A stretch of DNA of 44,784 nt. Source: Escherichia phage mutPK1A2. Below, one piece after another: positions 1-44,784 of this stretch. The translations under genes and the position numbers were made by a program. Location of the stretch: the sequence record NC_047889.1; one strand, 5' to 3'. The notes beneath the pieces were generated by a model, which saw only the letters and a list, made by a program, of their open reading frames with translations, was not told where the DNA came from and ran no database searches. Position 1 is the stretch's first letter. Each line of letters starts with the position of its first letter.

Positions 1-287
1 CTCGCCCTCGCCCTCGCCGGACTTTCCCCATATGGGGTCGCGCTGCGGTTGGCTTGGGAATTGGGCTAGGCTGGGCCGTCTTCAACCTGCTGCCGCAGGA
101 AGCTCGACGGGCTGGCTGAGGTTTGCCTTGTACTCGCTTAGTGGTACACAAGGAGAACGCCTAGGAAGCGCTAGGGCACGCCTTAGTATTGGACAAGGTG
201 ATTGCCTTAGTGCATCCGCTTAGGGCTTACACGGGCCGTTTTAGGGCCATTCCTGAGCGTTTGACAGGGTGTGTTGGTGTGGGCTAT
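1..287. repeat. Left direct terminal repeat (DTR), at least 287 bp
   Basis: Bases 1..287 are identical to 44498..44784 by direct reading; the right copy is cut by the window end so the true length may be longer. Begins with (CTCGCC)x3. Confidence 0.9.
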
Positions 288-723: not shown

Positions 724-946
724 TTAGCAATCACTGAGGCGGACCTAGCAAGCTGCCTCAGGTTATAAGCAGGATAATTGATGCGTAGGTCATAGCTAGT
801 GAATGTAGTCGCATGAAGGCTTGAGTAAGGGGCCGTTTAATACCTTCTTCCTCTGGAGACAACGCTTATAGCACCGCTCTTTAACAATTTGCTTAGTGTA
901 ACCTATGTATGCCGTGGTTAATTACTTATTAAATGAGGTATTAACT

Positions 947-1749: not shown

Positions 1750-1898
1750 GATAGTTGCTGGCACTAGCCAGCCTATCAAGGCACAAGCCACGCTCTTTAA
1801 CAATTTGGATAGAAGCTTCTTAGTCTGGATAGGTTAAACCTAGGGTATTCTTTTGAGTACCCTATAATGTAACCTAACTAACTAATGAGGATTAAATC

Positions 1899-2228
1899 AT
1901 GGAACGCAATGCTAACGCTTACTACAACCTTCTGGCTGCAACTGTTGAAGCATTCAACGAGCGTATTCAGTTTGATGAGATTCGCGAAGGTGATGATTAC
2001 TCTGATGCACTACATGAGGTTGTAGACAGCAATGTTCCAGTTTATTACAGCGAAATCTTTACTGTGATGGCTGCTGATGGCATTGATGTTGATTTTGAGG
2101 ATGCTGGTTTGATTCCTGACACGAAGGATGTAACCAAGATTCTACAAGCTCGCATCTATGAAGCTCTTTATAATGATGTACCAAATGACAGCGATGTAGT
2201 TTGGTATGAAGGCGAAGAAGAGGAATAA
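1899..2228 (+). CDS. ocr: Ocr-like DNA-mimic anti-restriction protein (T7 gene 0.3 homolog)
   Basis: Highly acidic 109-aa protein; segment [43 protein letters not shown] closely matches recalled T7 Ocr ([43 protein letters not shown]); acidic C-terminus; first sizeable early gene as in T7. Confidence 0.8.
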   Translation: [109 protein letters not shown]

Positions 2229-2336
2229 TAAGATGGAAAGGAAATATAACTTCATATTTTCAGACGGTGTGACCTTAAAATGTTCCTTGCGATTTGCACA
2301 GATTCGTGAGGAAGTACTAGGAACTACATACAAGCT

Positions 2337-2360
2337 ATTTAGCTGACACTATAAGAGAAG
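2337..2360 (+). promoter_or_regulatory. Variant phage-promoter-like element ATTTAGCTGACACTATAAGAGAAG
   Basis: Shares the GACACTATA core with the phage consensus but differs at -11 and around +1; may be a weak early promoter or a relic. Confidence 0.3.
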
Positions 2361-2422
2361 GCTTAACAAGGCGTTGCTACGGTAGCGCCTGATTAAACTT
2401 TCACTTACTAGGAGTTGAGATT

Positions 2423-2608
2423 ATGAAAACCTTGATTGGATGCTTCTTGTTGGCTTCTCTTGCTCTGGCATTTACCGCTAAAGCTGGTTATGACGCTTAT
2501 AAAGTAGAACAAGCCCAGCAAGACTGGGCCAAAAAGTTCAACTTGTGCAGCAAGAGCAACACCTACGAGTACTGCAACAAAACACTAAGACACTTATGGA
2601 AAGAGTAA
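2423..2608 (+). CDS. Small early protein with N-terminal signal peptide (61 aa, 3 Cys)
   Basis: RBS AGGAG; N-terminus MKTLIGCFLLASLALAFTAKA-G is a typical Sec signal peptide with an AKA cleavage motif. Confidence 0.5.
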   Translation: MKTLIGCFLLASLALAFTAKAGYDAYKVEQAQQDWAKKFNLCSKSNTYEYCNKTLRHLWKE

Positions 2609-2672
2609 CTAACCTATAGCCTGCCTGAGTGGGCTATGTGATATTTACTTACCACTATATAAGGTGATTACT

Positions 2673-3557
2673 ATGACTACTGAAAACACCCTCGTGTCTG
2701 TCCGTGAAGCTGCAACCGCTGAAATTAAGCAGCACTTAGACAATATCGGCACTTCTTACATCAAAGTTGGCGCTTGTCTGAATGAATTACGCGGTGATTT
2801 CGAAGGTCAAAAAGACTTTTTAGCTTATGTAGAATCAGAGTTCGGCATCAAGAAGGCACAATGCTACAAGCTGATGAGTGTAGCCCGTGTCTTTGAAGGA
2901 GACGAACGCTTTAAAGGTGTGGCTATGCGTGTAATGCTGGCGCTTGTTCCTTTCGCTGATGAAAATATAATCATGGAGAAGGCCGCAGAACTCGCCGCAG
3001 ATGGCAAGCTGGACACTAACGCCGTAAACGCCTTGATTGAGCCTAAGAAAGAGATAAAGGCCGAAACGGTACAATCTAAGGCTGAGACAGTAAAACCGCA
3101 GGAGAACGCGACTGAGGCCGCAGAATCACAGGAAATGCAAGCGCCGCAGGTAGTGCCACCCGCGAGCGAGCAGGAGGCCGACGAATCAGCACCATGGGGA
3201 GAGGAAAGCAAGCCGGAGGCACCGAAGGCCGCGCCGCTGGATAACACGGCTAATACTGAGAATGCCGCTATTGCTGGTCTGCTGGCACAAATTAAAGCAC
3301 TGACTGAGCAATTACAGGCAGCCAATGATCGCATCGCCTCCTTAAGTAGCGCACGCGAAAGCAAGAAGGCAGCCGCGCCTATGCTGCCGCAATTCAAATC
3401 TTCCTGCTTCTATGCTCGCTTAGGTTTAAGCGCTGAGGAGGCAACGAAGAAAACAGCAGTTAACAAGGCACGCCGCGAACTGGTTAAGCTAGGCTACGGT
3501 GAAGGCCATGAAGCATGGCCCTTAATCTCTGAGGCAGTAGAAGAGTTGACTAAGTAA
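2673..3557 (+). CDS. Hypothetical early protein (294 aa; globular N-domain, acidic Ala/Glu-rich linker, C-domain)
   Basis: Long ORF with SD AAGGTG before ATG 2673 (track start 2664 is GTG); sits immediately upstream of the RNAP gene, the slot held by gene 0.7 in T7, but with no kinase motifs seen. Confidence 0.6.
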   Translation: MTTENTLVSVREAATAEIKQHLDNIGTSYIKVGACLNELRGDFEGQKDFLAYVESEFGIKKAQCYKLMSVARVFEGDERFKGVAMRVMLALVPFADENIIMEKAAELAADGKLDTNAVNALIEPKKEIKAETVQSKAETVKPQENATEAAESQEMQAPQVVPPASEQEADESAPWGEESKPEAPKAAPLDNTANTENAAIAGLLAQIKALTEQLQAANDRIASLSSARESKKAAAPMLPQFKSSCFYARLGLSAEEATKKTAVNKARRELVKLGYGEGHEAWPLISEAVEELTK

Positions 3558-3620
3558 CCTTATCGGTGGCATCTTCTTAGGTGTCACCTATTAAGGTTTC
3601 TTTCACTAGGAGTAAACAAG

Positions 3621-6248
3621 ATGCAAGACCTACACGCTATTCAACTTCAACTTGAAGAAGAAATGTTTAACGGCGGTATCCGTCGCTTTGAAGCGGACCA
3701 ACAACGCCAGATTGCATCCGGTAATGAATCAGACACGGCATGGAATCGCCGCTTATTGTCCGAACTAATCGCACCTATGGCGGAAGGTATTCAGGCTTAC
3801 AAGGAAGAATACGAAGGCAAGAGAGGTCGTGCACCACGTGCATTAGCTTTCATTAACTGCGTAGAAAACGAAGTAGCAGCATATATCACCATGAAAATCG
3901 TTATGGACATGCTGAATACAGACGTTACCTTACAAGCCATCGCTATGAATGTAGCGGACCGCATCGAAGACCAAGTACGTTTTAGCAAGCTGGAAGGTCA
4001 CGCAGCTAAATACTTTGAGAAAGTGAAGAAGTCGCTTAAGGCTAGCAAGACTAAATCTTATCGTCATGCGCACAACGTAGCGGTAGTAGCTGAGAAATCT
4101 GTTGCTGACCGTGACGCGGATTTCTCCCGTTGGGAGGCATGGCCTAAAGACACCTTGCTGCAAATCGGTATGACCTTGCTCGAAATATTGGAGAATAGTG
4201 TATTCTTCAATGGTCAACCTGTCTTCCTTCGTACCTTGCGCACTAACGGCGGAAAGCATGGTGTTTACTATTTACAGACCAGTGAACATGTTGGCGAGTG
4301 GATAACTGCATTTAAGGAACATGTAGCGCAGCTCAGCCCTGCCTATGCACCTTGCGTTATACCTCCCCGCCCTTGGGTATCACCTTTTAACGGTGGGTTT
4401 CATACTGAGAAAGTAGCAAGCCGTATTCGTCTGGTAAAAGGCAATCGTGAGCACGTCCGCAAGCTGACCAAAAAGCAAATGCCAGCGGTTTACAAGGCTG
4501 TTAACGCTTTGCAGGCGACTAAGTGGCAGGTTAATAAAGAGGTTTTGCAGGTAGTAGAAGACGTTATCCGTCTCGACCTTGGTTATGGTGTGCCTTCCTT
4601 TAAACCGCTCATTGACCGCGAGAACAAGCCAGCTAATCCAGTGCCGCTAGAATTTCAGCACCTACGGGGCCGTGAACTGAAAGAAATGCTTACGCCGGAA
4701 CAATGGCAAGCCTTTATCAACTGGAAAGGTGAATGCACCAAGCTGTATACCGCTGAGACTAAGCGCGGCAGCAAATCGGCGGCGACCGTCCGCATGGTAG
4801 GACAGGCCCGTAAATACAGCCAGTTTGACGCAATATACTTCGTGTATGCACTGGACAGCCGCAGCCGCGTCTACGCGCAATCTAGCACGCTCTCTCCGCA
4901 ATCAAACGACTTAGGCAAGGCATTGCTCCGTTTTACCGAAGGGCAGCGCCTTGATAGCGCTGAGGTGCTTAAATGGTTTTTGGTGAACGGGGCTAATAAC
5001 TGGGGTTGGGATAAGAAAACTTTTGACGTGCGCACCGCTAACGTGCTGGATAGTGAATTTCAAGACATGTGCCGCGACATTGCAGCGGATCCGCTGACCT
5101 TCACTCAATGGGTTAATGCCGACTCCCCTTACGACTTCCTTGCTTGGTGCTTTGAATATGCGCGTTATCTGGATGCACTGGATGAAGGCACGCAAGACCA
5201 ATTCATGACGCACCTCCCAGTCCATCAAGATGGTAGTTGTTCTGGTATCCAGCACTACAGTGCTATGCTACGCGATGCAGTAGGTGCGAAAGCGGTAAAC
5301 CTTAAGCCCTCTGACTCCCCTCAAGATATTTATGGTGCCGTTGCGCAGGTAGTAATTCAGAAGAATTATGCATACATGAATGCAGAGGATGCGGAAACCT
5401 TCACTTCTGGCAGCGTGACTTTAACAGGTGCAGAACTTCGTAGCATGGCTAGTGCGTGGGATATGATAGGAATCACTCGCGGCCTGACCAAAAAGCCCGT
5501 AATGACACTACCTTACGGCAGCACACGTCTAACCTGCCGTGAGTCAGTGATTGATTATATCGTTGATTTAGAAGAAAAAGAGGCCCAACGGGCTATTGCG
5601 GAAGGGCGTACCGCCAACCCTGTACATCCTTTTGATAATGACCGTAAGGACAGCCTGACACCTAGCGCAGCTTATAACTATATGACAGCTCTAATCTGGC
5701 CTTCTATCTCGGAAGTGGTTAAAGCTCCTATAGTGGCAATGAAAATGATTCGTCAGCTTGCACGTTTCGCAGCTAAAAGAAACGAAGGCTTAGAATATCC
5801 CTTACCAACTGGCTTCATCTTGCAACAAAAGATAATGGCTACCGATATGCTCCGCGTATCCACTTGCTTGATGGGTGAAATCAAGATGAGTCTCCAGATT
5901 GAAACAGATGTAGTTGATGAAACGGCAATGATGGGTGCGGCTGCTCCTAACTTCGTCCATGGTCACGATGCTAGCCACCTGATTCTGACTGTATGTGACC
6001 TAGTGGATAAAGGTATTACATCCATTGCAGTCATCCATGATTCTTTCGGTACTCATGCAGGACGTACCGCAGACCTGCGGGATAGCTTAAGGGAAGAAAT
6101 GGTTAAGATGTATCAAAACCATAATGCCCTGCAAAACCTGCTAGATGTGCACGAAGAGCGTTGGTTAGTAGACACCGGAATCCAAGTACCAGAGCAAGGG
6201 GAGTTTGACCTTAACGAAATCTTAGTTTCAGACTATTGCTTCGCATAA
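3621..6248 (+). CDS. Single-subunit DNA-dependent RNA polymerase, SP6-type
   Basis: 875 aa; N-terminus [32 protein letters not shown] recognised as SP6 RNAP; catalytic motifs [13 protein letters not shown] and HDSFGTH present; RBS AGGAG. Confidence 0.95.
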
Positions 6249-44497: not shown

Positions 44498-44784
44498 TCT
44501 CGCCCTCGCCCTCGCCGGACTTTCCCCATATGGGGTCGCGCTGCGGTTGGCTTGGGAATTGGGCTAGGCTGGGCCGTCTTCAACCTGCTGCCGCAGGAAG
44601 CTCGACGGGCTGGCTGAGGTTTGCCTTGTACTCGCTTAGTGGTACACAAGGAGAACGCCTAGGAAGCGCTAGGGCACGCCTTAGTATTGGACAAGGTGAT
44701 TGCCTTAGTGCATCCGCTTAGGGCTTACACGGGCCGTTTTAGGGCCATTCCTGAGCGTTTGACAGGGTGTGTTGGTGTGGGCTA
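44498..44784. repeat. Right direct terminal repeat (DTR)
   Basis: Same sequence as 1..287; T7-like genomes carry terminal redundancy used in concatemer formation and packaging. Confidence 0.9.

What the first reader, a model, noticed from the sequence alone, without database searches (positions are those of the whole stretch)
1899..3557. Early anti-host module: Ocr-like DNA mimic plus two uncharacterised early proteins
The 109-aa acidic protein at 1899..2228 is a clear Ocr homolog. Directly after it are a 61-aa protein with a Sec-type signal peptide and three cysteines (unusual for an early gene of a lytic podovirus; possibly periplasmic) and a 294-aa protein with an acidic Ala/Glu-rich linker in the gene-0.7 position but without kinase motifs. 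Genes co-located with Ocr are good candidates for new defence or host-takeover inhibitors.
Basis: partly seen in the sequence, partly recalled or inferred. Interest (0 to 1): 0.6.

Follow-up and report, generated by a model that had tools for sequence, protein, structure and literature searches.

The report
Early genes of a K1-5-like coliphage
This is the ordinary early-gene block of a K1-5/SP6-type E. coli phage: a known anti-restriction DNA mimic, a small exported peptide in a fast-changing gene slot, and a conserved uncharacterised protein that joins a DNA-binding-type domain to a crippled chaperone-recruiting (J) domain.

Summary
The window is a complete Vectrevirus genome, 95% identical to phage K1-5 across this region.

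- **Ocr, 1899..2228:** a true Ocr (Pfam E 9e-31; 50% identical to T7 Ocr).
- **gp4, 2233..2346:**
- **gp5, 2423..2608:** the 61-aa protein has a textbook Sec signal peptide (MK, 17 uncharged residues, AKA|G) and a conserved Cys pair. It is under purifying selection (dN/dS about 0.05). It sits in a hypervariable slot which, in related phages, holds at least 8 unrelated small proteins. Nearly all carry a hydrophobic segment, and T7 gene 0.5 is the positional parallel, so it is not unusual.
- **gp6, 2673..3557:** the 294-aa protein is not an orphan accessory gene. It occurs in 212 phage records, roughly the whole SP6-like clade, whichever anti-restriction gene is present.
  - Its parts are a DUF3102 / ParB-KorB-like helix-turn-helix domain, an acidic disordered linker, a coiled coil, a PxLPQF motif and a J-like domain.
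  - All 86 family members examined lack the HPD motif.
  - It shows no homology to the T7 gp0.7 kinase.
  - It is most likely a DNA-tethered dimeric adaptor, a pseudo-J-domain protein. Its partner is unknown.

A coordinated "Ocr module" is not supported. These genes evolve independently, and gp5 and gp6 each have their own weak phage promoter. Interest is moderate.

The parts
1816..1890 (+). Stable RNA hairpin in the leader of the Ocr gene (RNase III-site-like), just downstream of a boxA-like CGCTCTTTAACAAT at 1791..1804
   Evidence: Folding 1770..1898 gives -37.7 kcal/mol, z -4.27, with 0 of 200 shuffles folding as well. The boxA-like 14-mer is repeated at 875, 1528 and 1791 (family D10). It is also present in T7 at record position 812, upstream of gene 0.3.
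1899..2228 (+). Ocr-like DNA mimic, 109 aa (K1-5 gp3)
   Evidence: Pfam ocr E 9.3e-31. phrog_2568 'ocr-like anti-restriction' E 8.7e-51. T7 Ocr (1s7z) E 2.8e-27, 50% identity over 98 aa. pI 4.05. dN/dS 0.09 against ULINTec6.
   Evidence: phrog_11746 E 2.9e-29. Annotated as gene 4 in K1-5 and K1E. 73% identical to an unannotated ORF in SP6. Present in most of the 33 related loci, including those where Ocr is replaced. No hydrophobic segment (KD19 0.63).
2336..2358 (+). Weak phage-RNA-polymerase promoter (TATTTAGCTGACACTATAAGAGA) upstream of gp5
   Evidence: Scores 24.2 bits on a weight matrix built from 11 consensus promoters of this genome, against 9.5 bits for the best non-promoter site. The identical site is present in K1-5 and K1E, and a related one in SP6.
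2349..2411 (+). Stable RNA hairpin in the gp5 leader
   Evidence: -27.1 kcal/mol, z -5.58, 0 of 200 shuffles as stable.
2423..2485 (+). gp5 signal peptide (aa 1-21, MKTLIGCFLLASLALAFTAKA)
   Evidence: Made of an n-region MK, a 17-residue uncharged h-region and AKA|G. The four intact alleles differ only by conservative hydrophobic substitutions. The PP1 homologue carries ...NQAKA|SYD.
2486..2608 (+). gp5 mature peptide (40 aa, pI 8.66, Cys42 and Cys51) plus the stop codon
   Evidence: Both Cys are invariant in the intact alleles. The AF2 model is a helix-turn-helix hairpin with the two Cys flanking the turn, but confidence is low (pLDDT 62). dN/dS is about 0.05 against the ULINTec6 allele. There are only 6 clusters in 5.8e9 proteins and 12 phage records.
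2615..2638 (+). Terminator-like or processing hairpin after gp5
   Evidence: 10-bp stem. Stability is not significant on its own (z -1.49).
2642..2664 (+). Second weak phage-type promoter (TATTTACTTACCACTATATAAGG) upstream of gp6 and the RNA polymerase gene
   Evidence: Scores 21.2 bits on the weight matrix, against a 9.5-bit background. The K1-5 equivalent scores 25.2 bits.
2700..3038 (+). gp6 N-terminal helical domain (aa 10-122): DUF3102-type, ParB/KorB/VirB-like helix-turn-helix; HTH is H46-57 and H61-74
3039..3257 (+). gp6 acidic disordered linker (aa 123-195)
   Evidence: pLDDT about 47-57 over most of it. Net charge -9. Across the family the length ranges from 38 to 94 aa with mean charge -7. 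Only 29% identical to SP6.
3258..3368 (+). gp6 coiled-coil helix (aa 196-232)
   Evidence: Single helix H196-230, pLDDT 93-94 over most of it. The length is fixed at 37 aa in most members. 68% identical to SP6.
3378..3395 (+). Conserved P-x-L-P-Q-F motif (aa 236-241) capping the J-like domain
   Evidence: P, L and F are at least 90% conserved across the family.
3387..3557 (+). gp6 C-terminal J-like (pseudo-J) domain (aa 239-294) plus the stop codon; the HPD motif is replaced by Y-G-E
3556..3598 (+). Stable RNA hairpin between gp6 and the RNA polymerase gene (3621..6248)
   Evidence: -22.5 kcal/mol, z -4.75, 0 of 200 shuffles as stable.

Best explanation
The interval is the standard early (class I) gene block of a K1-5-like Vectrevirus. 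It is read first by host RNA polymerase and then also from two weak phage promoters. It holds four genes that evolve independently, not one module.

1. **Ocr.** An acidic dimeric DNA mimic that titrates type I restriction enzymes and BREX. This is the known mechanism; membership is shown here by homology.
2. **gp4.** A 37-aa cytoplasmic protein conserved across the subfamily. Its role is unknown.
3. **gp5.** It is made as a 61-aa precursor, exported by Sec and cleaved after AKA21. This releases a 40-aa basic peptide whose two cysteines probably form a disulfide that staples a helical hairpin in the periplasm.
   - It is one allele of a hypervariable slot that holds unrelated small membrane or exported proteins in relatives. 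The positional equivalent in T7 is gene 0.5.
   - I infer that it acts on the cell envelope, most plausibly in superinfection exclusion or on an envelope-located host factor.
4. **gp6.** The clade-wide conserved early protein encoded immediately upstream of the RNA polymerase gene.
   - I infer that its DUF3102 / ParB-KorB-like helix-turn-helix domain binds DNA and that the 37-residue coiled coil dimerises it.
   - An acidic flexible linker gives reach. The extremely conserved C-terminal pseudo-J domain, with its PxLPQF cap, docks a conserved partner.
   - Because the HPD motif is missing in every member, it cannot stimulate DnaK's ATPase in the canonical way.
   - It therefore works as a DNA-tethered adaptor or decoy (a 'type IV' J-domain protein), not as a normal co-chaperone.
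   - It is a positional but non-homologous counterpart of T7 gp0.7, a kinase fused to a DNA-binding domain.

**Shown:** gene structure, homology, domain architecture, loss of HPD, phyletic distribution, selection and promoters.

**Inferred:** export and cleavage of gp5, its disulfide, DNA binding and dimerisation by gp6, the identity of its partner, and all physiological roles.
For: **Identity of the phage.** 95.4% identity to K1-5 over 1800..3700, with matching annotation.

**Ocr.**

**gp5.**
- Signal-peptide anatomy and its conservation.
- Distant homologue with the same signal-peptide junction and a Cys pair in Pectobacterium phage PP1: pairwise BLASTP E 6e-7.
- dN/dS about 0.05, and only 78% nucleotide identity inside closely similar flanks.
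- Slot survey: 19 of 33 related loci carry a small ORF there. 11 of 12 distinct alleles exceed the KD19 threshold of 1.6, while all control early proteins score 1.17 or less.
- T7 gp0.5 is hydrophobic (KD19 2.18) at the analogous position.

**gp6.**
- Distribution: 212 phage records, all at 80% coverage or more, and 132 representatives at 50% identity. Distant members still lie in early regions upstream of the RNA polymerase gene and after a SAM lyase. The SP6-like RNA-polymerase clade is roughly 220 records.
- Structure: AF2 pLDDT 82 with four clear segments.
- N-terminal domain: DUF3102 and KorB/ParB/VirB-like evidence.
- C-terminal domain: J-domain evidence.
- HPD absent in 86 of 86 members.
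- Per-domain identity to SP6 of 75/29/68/94% against 85% for the RNA polymerase.
- Conserved basic and polar residues on the recognition helix.

**Transcription signals.** Promoters and hairpins.

**Literature.**
- HSV-1 ICP22 is an immediate-early protein with a J-like region but no HPD, and it recruits Hsc70 to nuclear loci (PMC13254874).
- The C-terminal domain of the T7 kinase binds DNA and directs the kinase to nucleic-acid-binding proteins (PMC13645617).
Against: **gp6.**
- The window's own protein hits neither DUF3102 nor DnaJ in Pfam at E 0.01 or better. Both assignments rest on family members, profiles and fold comparison.
- All DnaJ hits fall below Pfam's gathering score.
- The N-terminal domain is net acidic (charge -4 to -5, pI 4.9), which is unusual for a DNA binder.
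- No repeated operator-like DNA site was found. The one repeated palindrome behaves as an RNA hairpin.
- No partner of the J-like domain has been identified.

**gp5.**
- No SignalP run was possible.
- The structure model has low confidence (pLDDT 62).
- There is no functional homologue.
- The signal sequence could be an uncleaved anchor.

**Slot.** The K1E allele is only borderline hydrophobic (KD19 1.42).
Confidence: 0.6

Rival explanations
1. Ocr, gp5 and gp6 form an anti-host, counter-defence island, and gp5 and gp6 are new inhibitors of specific bacterial defence systems.
For: - All are early genes next to a proven anti-restriction gene.
- T7 gp0.7, at the position of gp6, is reported to be a broad anti-defence factor (PMC13645617).
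- gp5 is sporadic, allelic and sometimes frameshifted or absent, as arms-race genes often are.
- gp6 has an acidic disordered region.
Against: - gp6 is near-universal in a clade that infects Escherichia, Salmonella, Klebsiella, Proteus, Erwinia, Vibrio, Pseudomonas and Marinomonas. It is strongly constrained and independent of which anti-restriction gene is present.
- There are no PADLOC hits and no plasmid homologues.
- gp5 is exported, so it could reach only envelope or periplasmic targets, whereas most known defence effectors are cytoplasmic.
Confidence: 0.2
2. gp6 serves the phage's own gene expression or replication. It is a DNA-bound accessory or regulatory factor of the phage RNA polymerase, for example in the host-to-phage polymerase switch. 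It might stand in for the T7 lysozyme-RNA polymerase control that SP6-like phages appear to lack. In this view the J-like domain docks the phage polymerase rather than a host protein.
For: - gp6 is tightly syntenic with the RNA polymerase gene and co-transcribed with it from the same weak phage promoter.
- Its distribution coincides with the SP6-type RNA polymerase clade and stops at the T7-type clade.
- The J-like domain is conserved across phages with very different hosts, which a phage-encoded partner would explain.
Against: - Gene order is conserved for nearly everything in these genomes, so synteny is weak evidence.
- In marine relatives 2-4 small genes separate gp6 from the polymerase gene.
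- No repeated DNA site that could act as an operator was found.
- The absence of a T7-type amidase lysozyme was not tested here.
Confidence: 0.2
3. The fold resemblances of gp6 are generic helical-bundle similarities. It neither binds DNA nor relates functionally to J proteins, and acts for example as an acidic scaffold or decoy protein.
For: - The window protein itself has no significant Pfam hit.
- Foldseek-PDB E values exceed 1.
- The N-terminal domain and the whole protein are acidic.
Against: - Two independent sequence-profile routes point to the same families. DUF3102 is hit by 28 of 86 members, one above the gathering score. About 30 of the 37 PDB hits of the C-terminal profile are J domains, aligned in register over helices I-III.
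Confidence: 0.12
4. gp5 is not secreted. Its N-terminal hydrophobic stretch is an uncleaved membrane anchor, so gp5 is a small inner-membrane protein like the other slot alleles and T7 gp0.5. The alternative that it is a lipoprotein using the L-I-G-C7 lipobox is also considered here.
For: - Most other alleles of the slot look like single-pass membrane proteins without an obvious cleavage site.
- AF2 models residues 5-44 as one continuous helix.
Against: - AKA|G at positions 19-21 fits the -3/-1 rule, and the 21-residue length is typical. The junction motif AKA|[GS]YD is conserved down to the PP1 homologue.
- The lipobox reading would leave a 6-residue signal peptide, which is too short (read directly from the sequence).
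Confidence: 0.2

Closest known systems
T7 Ocr (gp0.3), DNA-mimic anti-restriction protein (PDB 1s7z)
   Same: The window protein 1899..2228 is 50% identical to it over 98 aa. It has the same length class, the same acidity, and the same first-expressed position after a boxA-like element and an RNA hairpin.
   Different: 109 aa against 117 aa, with a short EGEEEE tail. A second, more T7-like Ocr type (122-124 aa) replaces it in some Vectrevirus genomes. Its activity was not tested.
HPD-less pseudo-J-domain proteins ('type IV' JDPs): mitochondrial Pam16/Tim16, and HSV-1 ICP22
   Different: There is no detectable specific homology to Pam16 or ICP22. gp6 is fused to a DUF3102 helix-turn-helix domain and a coiled coil, and has a family-specific PxLPQF cap. 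Binding to DnaK or to a J protein was not tested.
Rki (RB43 ORF057w), the first functional phage-encoded J-domain protein (PMC3486835)
   Same: A phage-encoded protein with a J-type domain.
   Different: Rki is described as a functional J-domain protein that interacts with DnaK and stabilises sigma32. gp6 lacks HPD and has a different architecture. No similarity beyond the J fold was examined.
DUF3102 (PF11300) proteins, and the DNA-binding domains of KorB, ParB, SopB and VirB
   Different: gp6 has no ParB/Srx CTPase domain and no ParB C-terminal dimerisation domain. No repeated palindromic site was found. DUF3102 itself is uncharacterised; only 3 papers in the library mention it.
T7 gp0.7 (T7K), a protein kinase with a C-terminal DNA-binding shut-off domain
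   Same: It occupies the same genomic position, immediately upstream of the RNA polymerase gene, in the same early class. It is also a two-part protein, with a DNA-binding part and an effector part.
   Different: It is not homologous (hhalign probability 0.3%), and gp6 has no kinase. The domain order is reversed.
T7 gp0.5, and small phage-encoded periplasmic or membrane exclusion proteins (T4 Spackle and Imm, T5 Llp; recalled from general knowledge)
   Same: gp5 is a small early protein targeted to the envelope. T7 gp0.5 (47 aa, KD19 2.18) sits at the analogous position after genes 0.3 and 0.4.
   Different: There is no sequence similarity to any of them. gp5 has a cleavable signal peptide and a Cys pair. 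The function of T7 gp0.5 is itself unknown. The resemblance to Spackle, Imm and Llp is an analogy from memory, not a test.

Membership tests
Ocr (Pfam PF08684, DNA mimic) | Significant match to the family model and to T7 Ocr over the whole domain | tested here: met
   106.7 bits against a cut-off of 25, profile positions 5-97 of 101. 1s7z E 2.8e-27 over residues 7-104.
Ocr (Pfam PF08684, DNA mimic) | Strongly acidic surface that mimics DNA phosphate | tested here: met
   pI 4.05, 28 D+E against 6 K+R. The surface distribution itself was not modelled.
Ocr (Pfam PF08684, DNA mimic) | Inhibits type I restriction-modification enzymes and BREX | not testable with these tools
   Needs restriction or BREX plating assays.
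J-domain proteins (Pfam PF00226) | Helical-hairpin J fold (helices I-IV) | tested here: met
J-domain proteins (Pfam PF00226) | Sequence match to the family at the curated threshold | tested here: not met
   The window protein has no hit. The best family member scores 26.0 bits against a gathering score of 27.8. The profile-to-PDB search finds J domains only at E 4.5e-4 to 0.4.
J-domain proteins (Pfam PF00226) | HPD tripeptide in the loop between helices II and III, required for Hsp70 ATPase stimulation (PMC13254874) | tested here: not met
   Y-G-E in the window protein. T-A-A, N-A-D or similar in marine members, and N-P-D at best (P0151). 0 of 86 members have HPD.
J-domain proteins (Pfam PF00226) | Binds an Hsp70 (DnaK) | not testable with these tools
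   Needs pull-down, an ATPase assay or complex prediction.
Pseudo-J-domain ('type IV') proteins | Recognisable J domain with a non-conservative replacement of HPD | tested here: met
   The definition is taken from PMC13254874.
DUF3102 (Pfam PF11300) | Sequence match to the family model | tested here: inconclusive
   The window protein has no hit at E 0.01 or better. 28 of 86 homologues hit, with P0212 at 29.4 bits above the 24.4-bit gathering score, and the hits map to the region aligned with gp6 aa 10-122. Foldseek matches to BFVD DUF3102 proteins are at E 1e-3 to 1e-2.
ParB/KorB family | Helix-turn-helix DNA-binding domain of the KorB-O / ParB type | tested here: inconclusive
ParB/KorB family | N-terminal ParB/Srx (CTP-binding) domain | tested here: not met
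   No such Pfam hit in any of the 86 members. The gp6 helical domain starts at residue 10.
ParB/KorB family | Repeated palindromic binding sites (parS or operator) on the replicon | tested here: not met
   The only repeated palindrome, GTCTCACATGTGAGAC, has G.U-type asymmetry in its flanks and in all three SP6 copies. It therefore behaves as a plus-strand RNA hairpin.
T7 gp0.7 protein kinase | Homology to the kinase or shut-off domains | tested here: not met
   BLASTP E 8.4. hhalign probability 0.3%. No kinase family in Pfam or NCBIfam.
Sec (SPase I) secretory proteins | Tripartite signal peptide: basic n-region, hydrophobic h-region of 7-15 or more residues, and small residues at -3 and -1 | tested here: met
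   MK, then T3-A19, then A-K-A|G. KD19 1.81. Conserved in the alleles and in the PP1 homologue. No dedicated predictor was available.
Sec (SPase I) secretory proteins | Actual export and cleavage | not testable with these tools
   Needs PhoA or BlaM fusions, or mass spectrometry.

The most novel reading that the evidence does not exclude
gp6 is a phage-encoded, DNA-tethered pseudo-J-domain protein. It captures, relocalises or blocks the host Hsp70 system (DnaK, or the J proteins DnaJ and CbpA) on DNA, as a bacterial-virus counterpart of HSV-1 ICP22. It would serve the whole SP6-like clade as a general host-takeover or anti-defence factor, in the place where T7 uses its DNA-directed kinase. In parallel, the slot upstream of it would be a diversifying cassette of envelope-targeted peptides for superinfection exclusion.
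Probability: 0.12. Interest if true: 0.7.

Novelty: new variant of a known kind. Interest (0 to 1): 0.4.

Why it matters
SP6/K1-5-type phages are widely used: SP6 RNA polymerase as a reagent, and K1- and Klebsiella-capsule phages in therapy. Yet the gene immediately upstream of their polymerase gene has no assigned function, and GenBank labels it variously as 'endolysin', 'protein kinase' or 'late transcription factor'.

Recognising it as a DUF3102 helix-turn-helix domain fused to an HPD-less J-like domain gives a concrete, testable handle:
- Does it bind DNA?
- What does its highly conserved pseudo-J domain dock?

If the partner is DnaK or a J protein, it would be a rare bacterial-virus example of a pseudo-J-domain protein with a defined role. 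That class is still called enigmatic (PMC13254874).

The variable slot of small exported or membrane proteins is a compact natural library for studying envelope-level phage-phage or phage-host conflict. If neither idea holds, the region is simply the ordinary early block of a known phage.

Tried and rejected
1. **The repeated palindrome as a gp6 operator.** The palindrome GTCTCACATGTGAGAC has 8 copies, several just upstream of phage promoters. I rejected the operator idea because the stem extensions use T.G (G.U) pairs. The three SP6 copies (GTCTAACATGTTGGAC) share a T.G pair that pairs only in plus-strand RNA.
2. **Homology of gp6 to T7 gp0.7.** None was found.
3. **gp6 relatives on plasmids, for example in leading regions.** No match.
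4. **PADLOC defence models for all four proteins.** Nothing meaningful.
5. **A host origin for gp5.** No blastn match in 5,426 E. coli genomes, no PDB match, and only weak chance-level Pfam hits.
6. **Third large homology search, using the J-like profile.** It returned only 7 fragments, so no new domain contexts were found.
7. **Structure prediction of gp5.** Confidence was low (pLDDT 62), so I ran no fold search on it.
8. **The afdb50 fold library** was unavailable. Foldseek against the PDB gave no significant hit.
9. **A 175-aa protein in the Ocr slot of some Klebsiella phages** looked kinase-like by eye (GKGSF...). It has no Pfam hit and no similarity to T7 gp0.7, so I dropped the idea.
10. 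**Literature.** I found no paper on K1-5 gp5 or gp6, on SP6 gp6 or gp7, or on the function of DUF3102. The original SP6 and K1-5 genome papers are not in the searchable library.
11. **The search for related loci with the full 86-sequence alignment** failed for lack of a conserved stretch. It worked with 13 closer sequences.


Full report
**What the window is.** The 44,784-base window has identical 286-base ends (1-286 and 44499-44784) and an 875-aa single-subunit RNA polymerase gene at 3621..6248. Bases 1800-3700 are 95.4% identical to Escherichia phage K1-5. They are 94-97% identical to many other Vectrevirus genomes (Autographiviridae, Molineuxvirinae). In K1-5 the interval is annotated as genes 3 (Ocr-like), 4, 5 and 6, followed by the RNA polymerase gene. 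So the finding lies in the early region of a complete K1-5-like phage genome.

**Checking the observation.** All three ORFs are present as described.

- **Ocr (1899..2228).**
  - It matches Pfam 'ocr' at E 9.3e-31, the PHROG 'ocr-like anti-restriction' family at E 8.7e-51, and the solved T7 Ocr at E 2.8e-27.
  - It is 50% identical to T7 Ocr over 98 residues and has pI 4.05.
- **The 61-aa ORF (2423..2608).**
  - It has three cysteines and an N-terminus built like a Sec signal peptide: Met-Lys, 17 uncharged residues, then Ala-Lys-Ala|Gly.
- **The 294-aa ORF (2673..3557).**
  - It has a disordered acidic linker at residues 123-195.
  - It has no kinase signature.
  - It has no similarity to T7 gp0.7 by BLASTP or profile comparison (probability 0.3%).

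**Transcription signals.** I built a weight matrix from the 11 consensus phage promoters of this genome.

- Two further sites score well above background: 24.2 bits at 2336..2358, just before gp5, and 21.2 bits at 2642..2664, just before gp6. The best non-promoter site scores 9.5 bits.
- The first site is identical in K1-5 and K1E. K1-5 also has the second, and SP6 has a related site after its gp4.
- Both sites differ from the consensus around the start (TATAA and TATAT instead of TATAG), so they are probably weak.
- Stable RNA hairpins lie before Ocr, before gp5 and after gp6, with z scores of -4.3, -5.6 and -4.75.
- gp5, gp6 and the polymerase gene can therefore be read by both the host and the phage polymerase, and each gene is a separate unit.

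**gp5.**

- *It is rare.* There are 12 phage records and 6 clusters among 5.8 billion proteins, two of them frameshifted. There are no E. coli chromosomal, PDB or family matches.
- *It is a real gene.* Against the ULINTec6 allele there are 25 synonymous and 15 non-synonymous differences, giving dN/dS of about 0.05. The gene is only 78% identical at the DNA level. The flanking genes differ far less (dS 0.12-0.22), which indicates allele exchange.
- *The signal peptide is conserved.* The alleles differ there only by conservative hydrophobic changes, and both mature-region cysteines are invariant.
- *The slot is hypervariable.* In 33 related loci from IMG/VR, the position between gp4 and gp6 is empty in some phages. 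In 19 loci it holds one of at least 8 unrelated small ORFs.
- *The slot proteins are hydrophobic.* 11 of 12 distinct alleles exceed the classical Kyte-Doolittle threshold (19-residue mean of 1.6 or more). Every other small early protein scores 1.17 or less. The K1E allele is borderline at 1.42.
- *There is a distant homologue.* The Pectobacterium phage PP1 allele has the same junction (AKA|SYD...EQARQD) and a Cys pair (pairwise BLASTP E 6e-7).
- *T7 has a parallel.* Its 47-aa hydrophobic gene 0.5 sits at the analogous position after genes 0.3 and 0.4.
- *The structure is uncertain.* The AF2 model is a low-confidence helical hairpin (pLDDT 62) with Cys42 and Cys51 flanking the turn.
- *Conclusion.* gp5 is most likely exported and cleaved to a 40-residue, disulfide-stapled peptide that acts in the envelope. 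Its accessory, allelic nature fits superinfection exclusion or another envelope-level conflict, but that role is inferred.

**gp6: distribution.**

- tblastn finds full-length homologues in 212 phage records. They come from phages of Escherichia, Klebsiella, Salmonella, Proteus, Erwinia, Pectobacterium, Vibrio, Pseudomonas and Marinomonas. All have genomes of about 43-48 kb.
- An exhaustive HMMER search finds 132 representatives at 50% clustering.
- The polymerase query was listed at even steps. About 11 of the 60 rows fall at 41% identity or more before the drop to about 33% for T7-type phages. That implies roughly 220 records in the SP6-like clade, so gp6 is close to universal there and absent from T7-type phages.
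- Distant metagenomic members remain in early regions. They lie upstream of the polymerase gene and downstream of an S-AdoMet lyase instead of Ocr.
- dN/dS is 0.10.

**gp6: architecture.** AF2 with an 86-sequence alignment gives mean pLDDT 82. The model has a helical domain (residues 10-122), a disordered segment (123-195), one long helix (196-230) and a compact helical domain (239-293).

- *N-terminal domain.*
  - 28 of 86 family members hit Pfam DUF3102, one of them above the gathering score. The hits map to the N-terminal domain.
  - Foldseek against the PDB also ranks VirB and KorB first, but not significantly. BFVD returns DUF3102 phage proteins.
  - The putative recognition helix conserves Lys61 (82 of 86), Ala62, Gln63, Tyr65 and Lys/Arg66. 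The domain is net acidic, which is a caveat.
- *C-terminal domain.*
  - 8 of 86 members hit Pfam DnaJ, all just below threshold.
  - For a profile of the domain, about 30 of its 37 PDB hits are J-domain chains (best E 4.5e-4), aligned in register.
  - Where J domains have His-Pro-Asp, gp6 has Tyr-Gly-Glu. No member of the family has HPD; the closest is Asn-Pro-Asp in one marine sequence.
  - HPD is essential for stimulating Hsp70's ATPase. Recognisable J domains without it are classed as pseudo- or 'type IV' J-domain proteins, such as Pam16 (PMC13254874).
- *Conservation by segment.* A P-x-L-P-Q-F motif immediately before the domain is at least 90% conserved. Identity to SP6 gp7 is 75% for the N-terminal domain, 29% for the linker, 68% for the coiled coil and 94% for the J-like domain. 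The polymerase is 85% identical. The J-like module is therefore the most constrained part and probably docks a highly conserved partner.

**How gp6 most likely works.**

- *Shown:* a conserved early protein with a DUF3102 / KorB-like domain, a flexible acidic linker, a fixed-length coiled coil and a pseudo-J domain.
- *Inferred:* it binds DNA through the helix-turn-helix domain, dimerises through the coiled coil, and uses the pseudo-J domain as a docking surface rather than as an Hsp70 activator.
- *Precedents:*
  - T7 gp0.7 at the same genomic position couples an effector (a kinase) to a DNA-binding domain that directs it to nucleic-acid-binding proteins (PMC13645617).
  - HSV-1 ICP22 is an immediate-early protein with a J-like region but no HPD, and it recruits Hsc70 to nuclear loci (PMC13254874).
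  - Neither is homologous to gp6.
- *Open question:* whether the partner is DnaK, a host J protein (as Pam16 binds Pam18), the phage polymerase or something else cannot be decided here.
- *No operator found:* the one repeated palindrome in the genome behaves as an RNA hairpin.

**Is it a module?** The data argue against a functional unit centred on Ocr.

- The anti-restriction slot switches between two Ocr types, a SAM lyase and unrelated proteins, while gp4 and gp6 stay in place.
- The gp5 slot turns over independently.
- gp5 and gp6 each have their own promoter and flanking hairpins.
- gp6 behaves as a core gene and gp5 as an accessory one.

**Novelty and score.** The DNA is about 95% identical to a phage sequenced two decades ago, and Ocr is known. 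gp5 is 100% identical to deposited hypothetical proteins. What is new is the interpretation:

- gp6 is a DUF3102 helix-turn-helix protein fused to a pseudo-J domain. I found this in no paper, and GenBank annotates it contradictorily.
- The slot upstream of it is a cassette of small envelope-targeted proteins.

This is a new variant of known kinds (pseudo-J-domain proteins, DUF3102 proteins, and small phage envelope proteins). Interest is moderate at 0.4. The result gives testable hypotheses, but it is not a surprise on present evidence.

Noticed in passing
window 875-888, 1528-1541, 1791-1804: There are three copies of CGCTCTTTAACAAT, each in the leader of an early gene. The same 14-mer occurs in T7 at record position 812, between promoter A3 and gene 0.3. 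From memory it matches the rrn/lambda boxA antitermination consensus (TGCTCTTTAACAA). That would suggest NusB/NusE-dependent antitermination of host-polymerase early transcripts. I did not check this against a reference.
   Followed up: partly
window 612, 6323, 6506, 7306, 8717, 9933, 15011, 31557 (16-mers): The palindrome GTCTCACATGTGAGAC is repeated 8 times, two of the copies degenerate. Copies often lie right after a gene and just upstream of a phage promoter. The flanks, and the three SP6 equivalents (GTCTAACATGTTGGAC), keep pairing through G.U wobbles. These are therefore plus-strand RNA hairpins, probably phage-polymerase terminator, pause or processing sites, rather than protein operators.
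   Followed up: partly
window 1-286 and 44499-44784: There are perfect 286-base direct terminal repeats, so the window is a complete linear phage genome.
   Followed up: no
window 2336-2358 and 2642-2664, compared with 12 other sites (e.g. 6340, 8642, 12991, 41034): The genome has 14 phage-type promoters by weight-matrix scan. The two upstream of the polymerase gene are among the three weakest, along with 6526, and have non-consensus start regions. This implies a weak positive feedback loop on the RNA polymerase gene itself.
   Followed up: partly
related loci L010, L015-L020 versus L011-L014 (Ocr position); L029, L031 and L006, L008 (SAM lyase); L030, L033, L035-L037 (other proteins): The anti-restriction slot upstream of gp4 is itself allelic. 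It holds two Ocr types (109-113 aa 'MERNANAYY' and 122-124 aa T7-like 'MAMSNMTYSQVY'), an S-AdoMet lyase (Pfam E 1.2e-35), or uncharacterised proteins of 101-175 aa.
   Followed up: partly
GenBank records KY295891, KY295893, OR424384, MG775042, OQ291025, OR594181, and protein P0086: Homologues of gp6 carry mutually contradictory and unsupported product names: 'andolysin', 'late transcription factor VLTF-4', 'protein kinase', 'putative prolipoprotein diacylglyceryl transferase', 'similar to DNA polymerase' and 'endolysin'.
   Followed up: no
window 2528-2536 (A-run in gp5); proteins P0122, P0125, P0126: gp5 contains an A-rich run (GCCAAAAAG). K1-5 has an extra Lys there. Two metagenomic variants are frameshifted from about that point, which suggests that the gene is easily lost or phase-variable.
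   Followed up: no
gp6 homologues P0135-P0137, P0147-P0175, P0224, P0240 (N-terminal 65-225 residues): Most non-enterobacterial members of the gp6 family carry an extra N-terminal extension (median about 85 aa, up to 225 aa). It has no recurrent Pfam match, so its nature is unknown.
   Followed up: no
locus L003 (OR594179.1, phage SHAK7163): This record is classified as Studiervirinae; Kayfunavirus and named vB_EcoM (myovirus). Yet it is 95% identical to this Vectrevirus early region, so it is probably misclassified. Its gp6 also carries a short insertion in the acidic linker.
   Followed up: no
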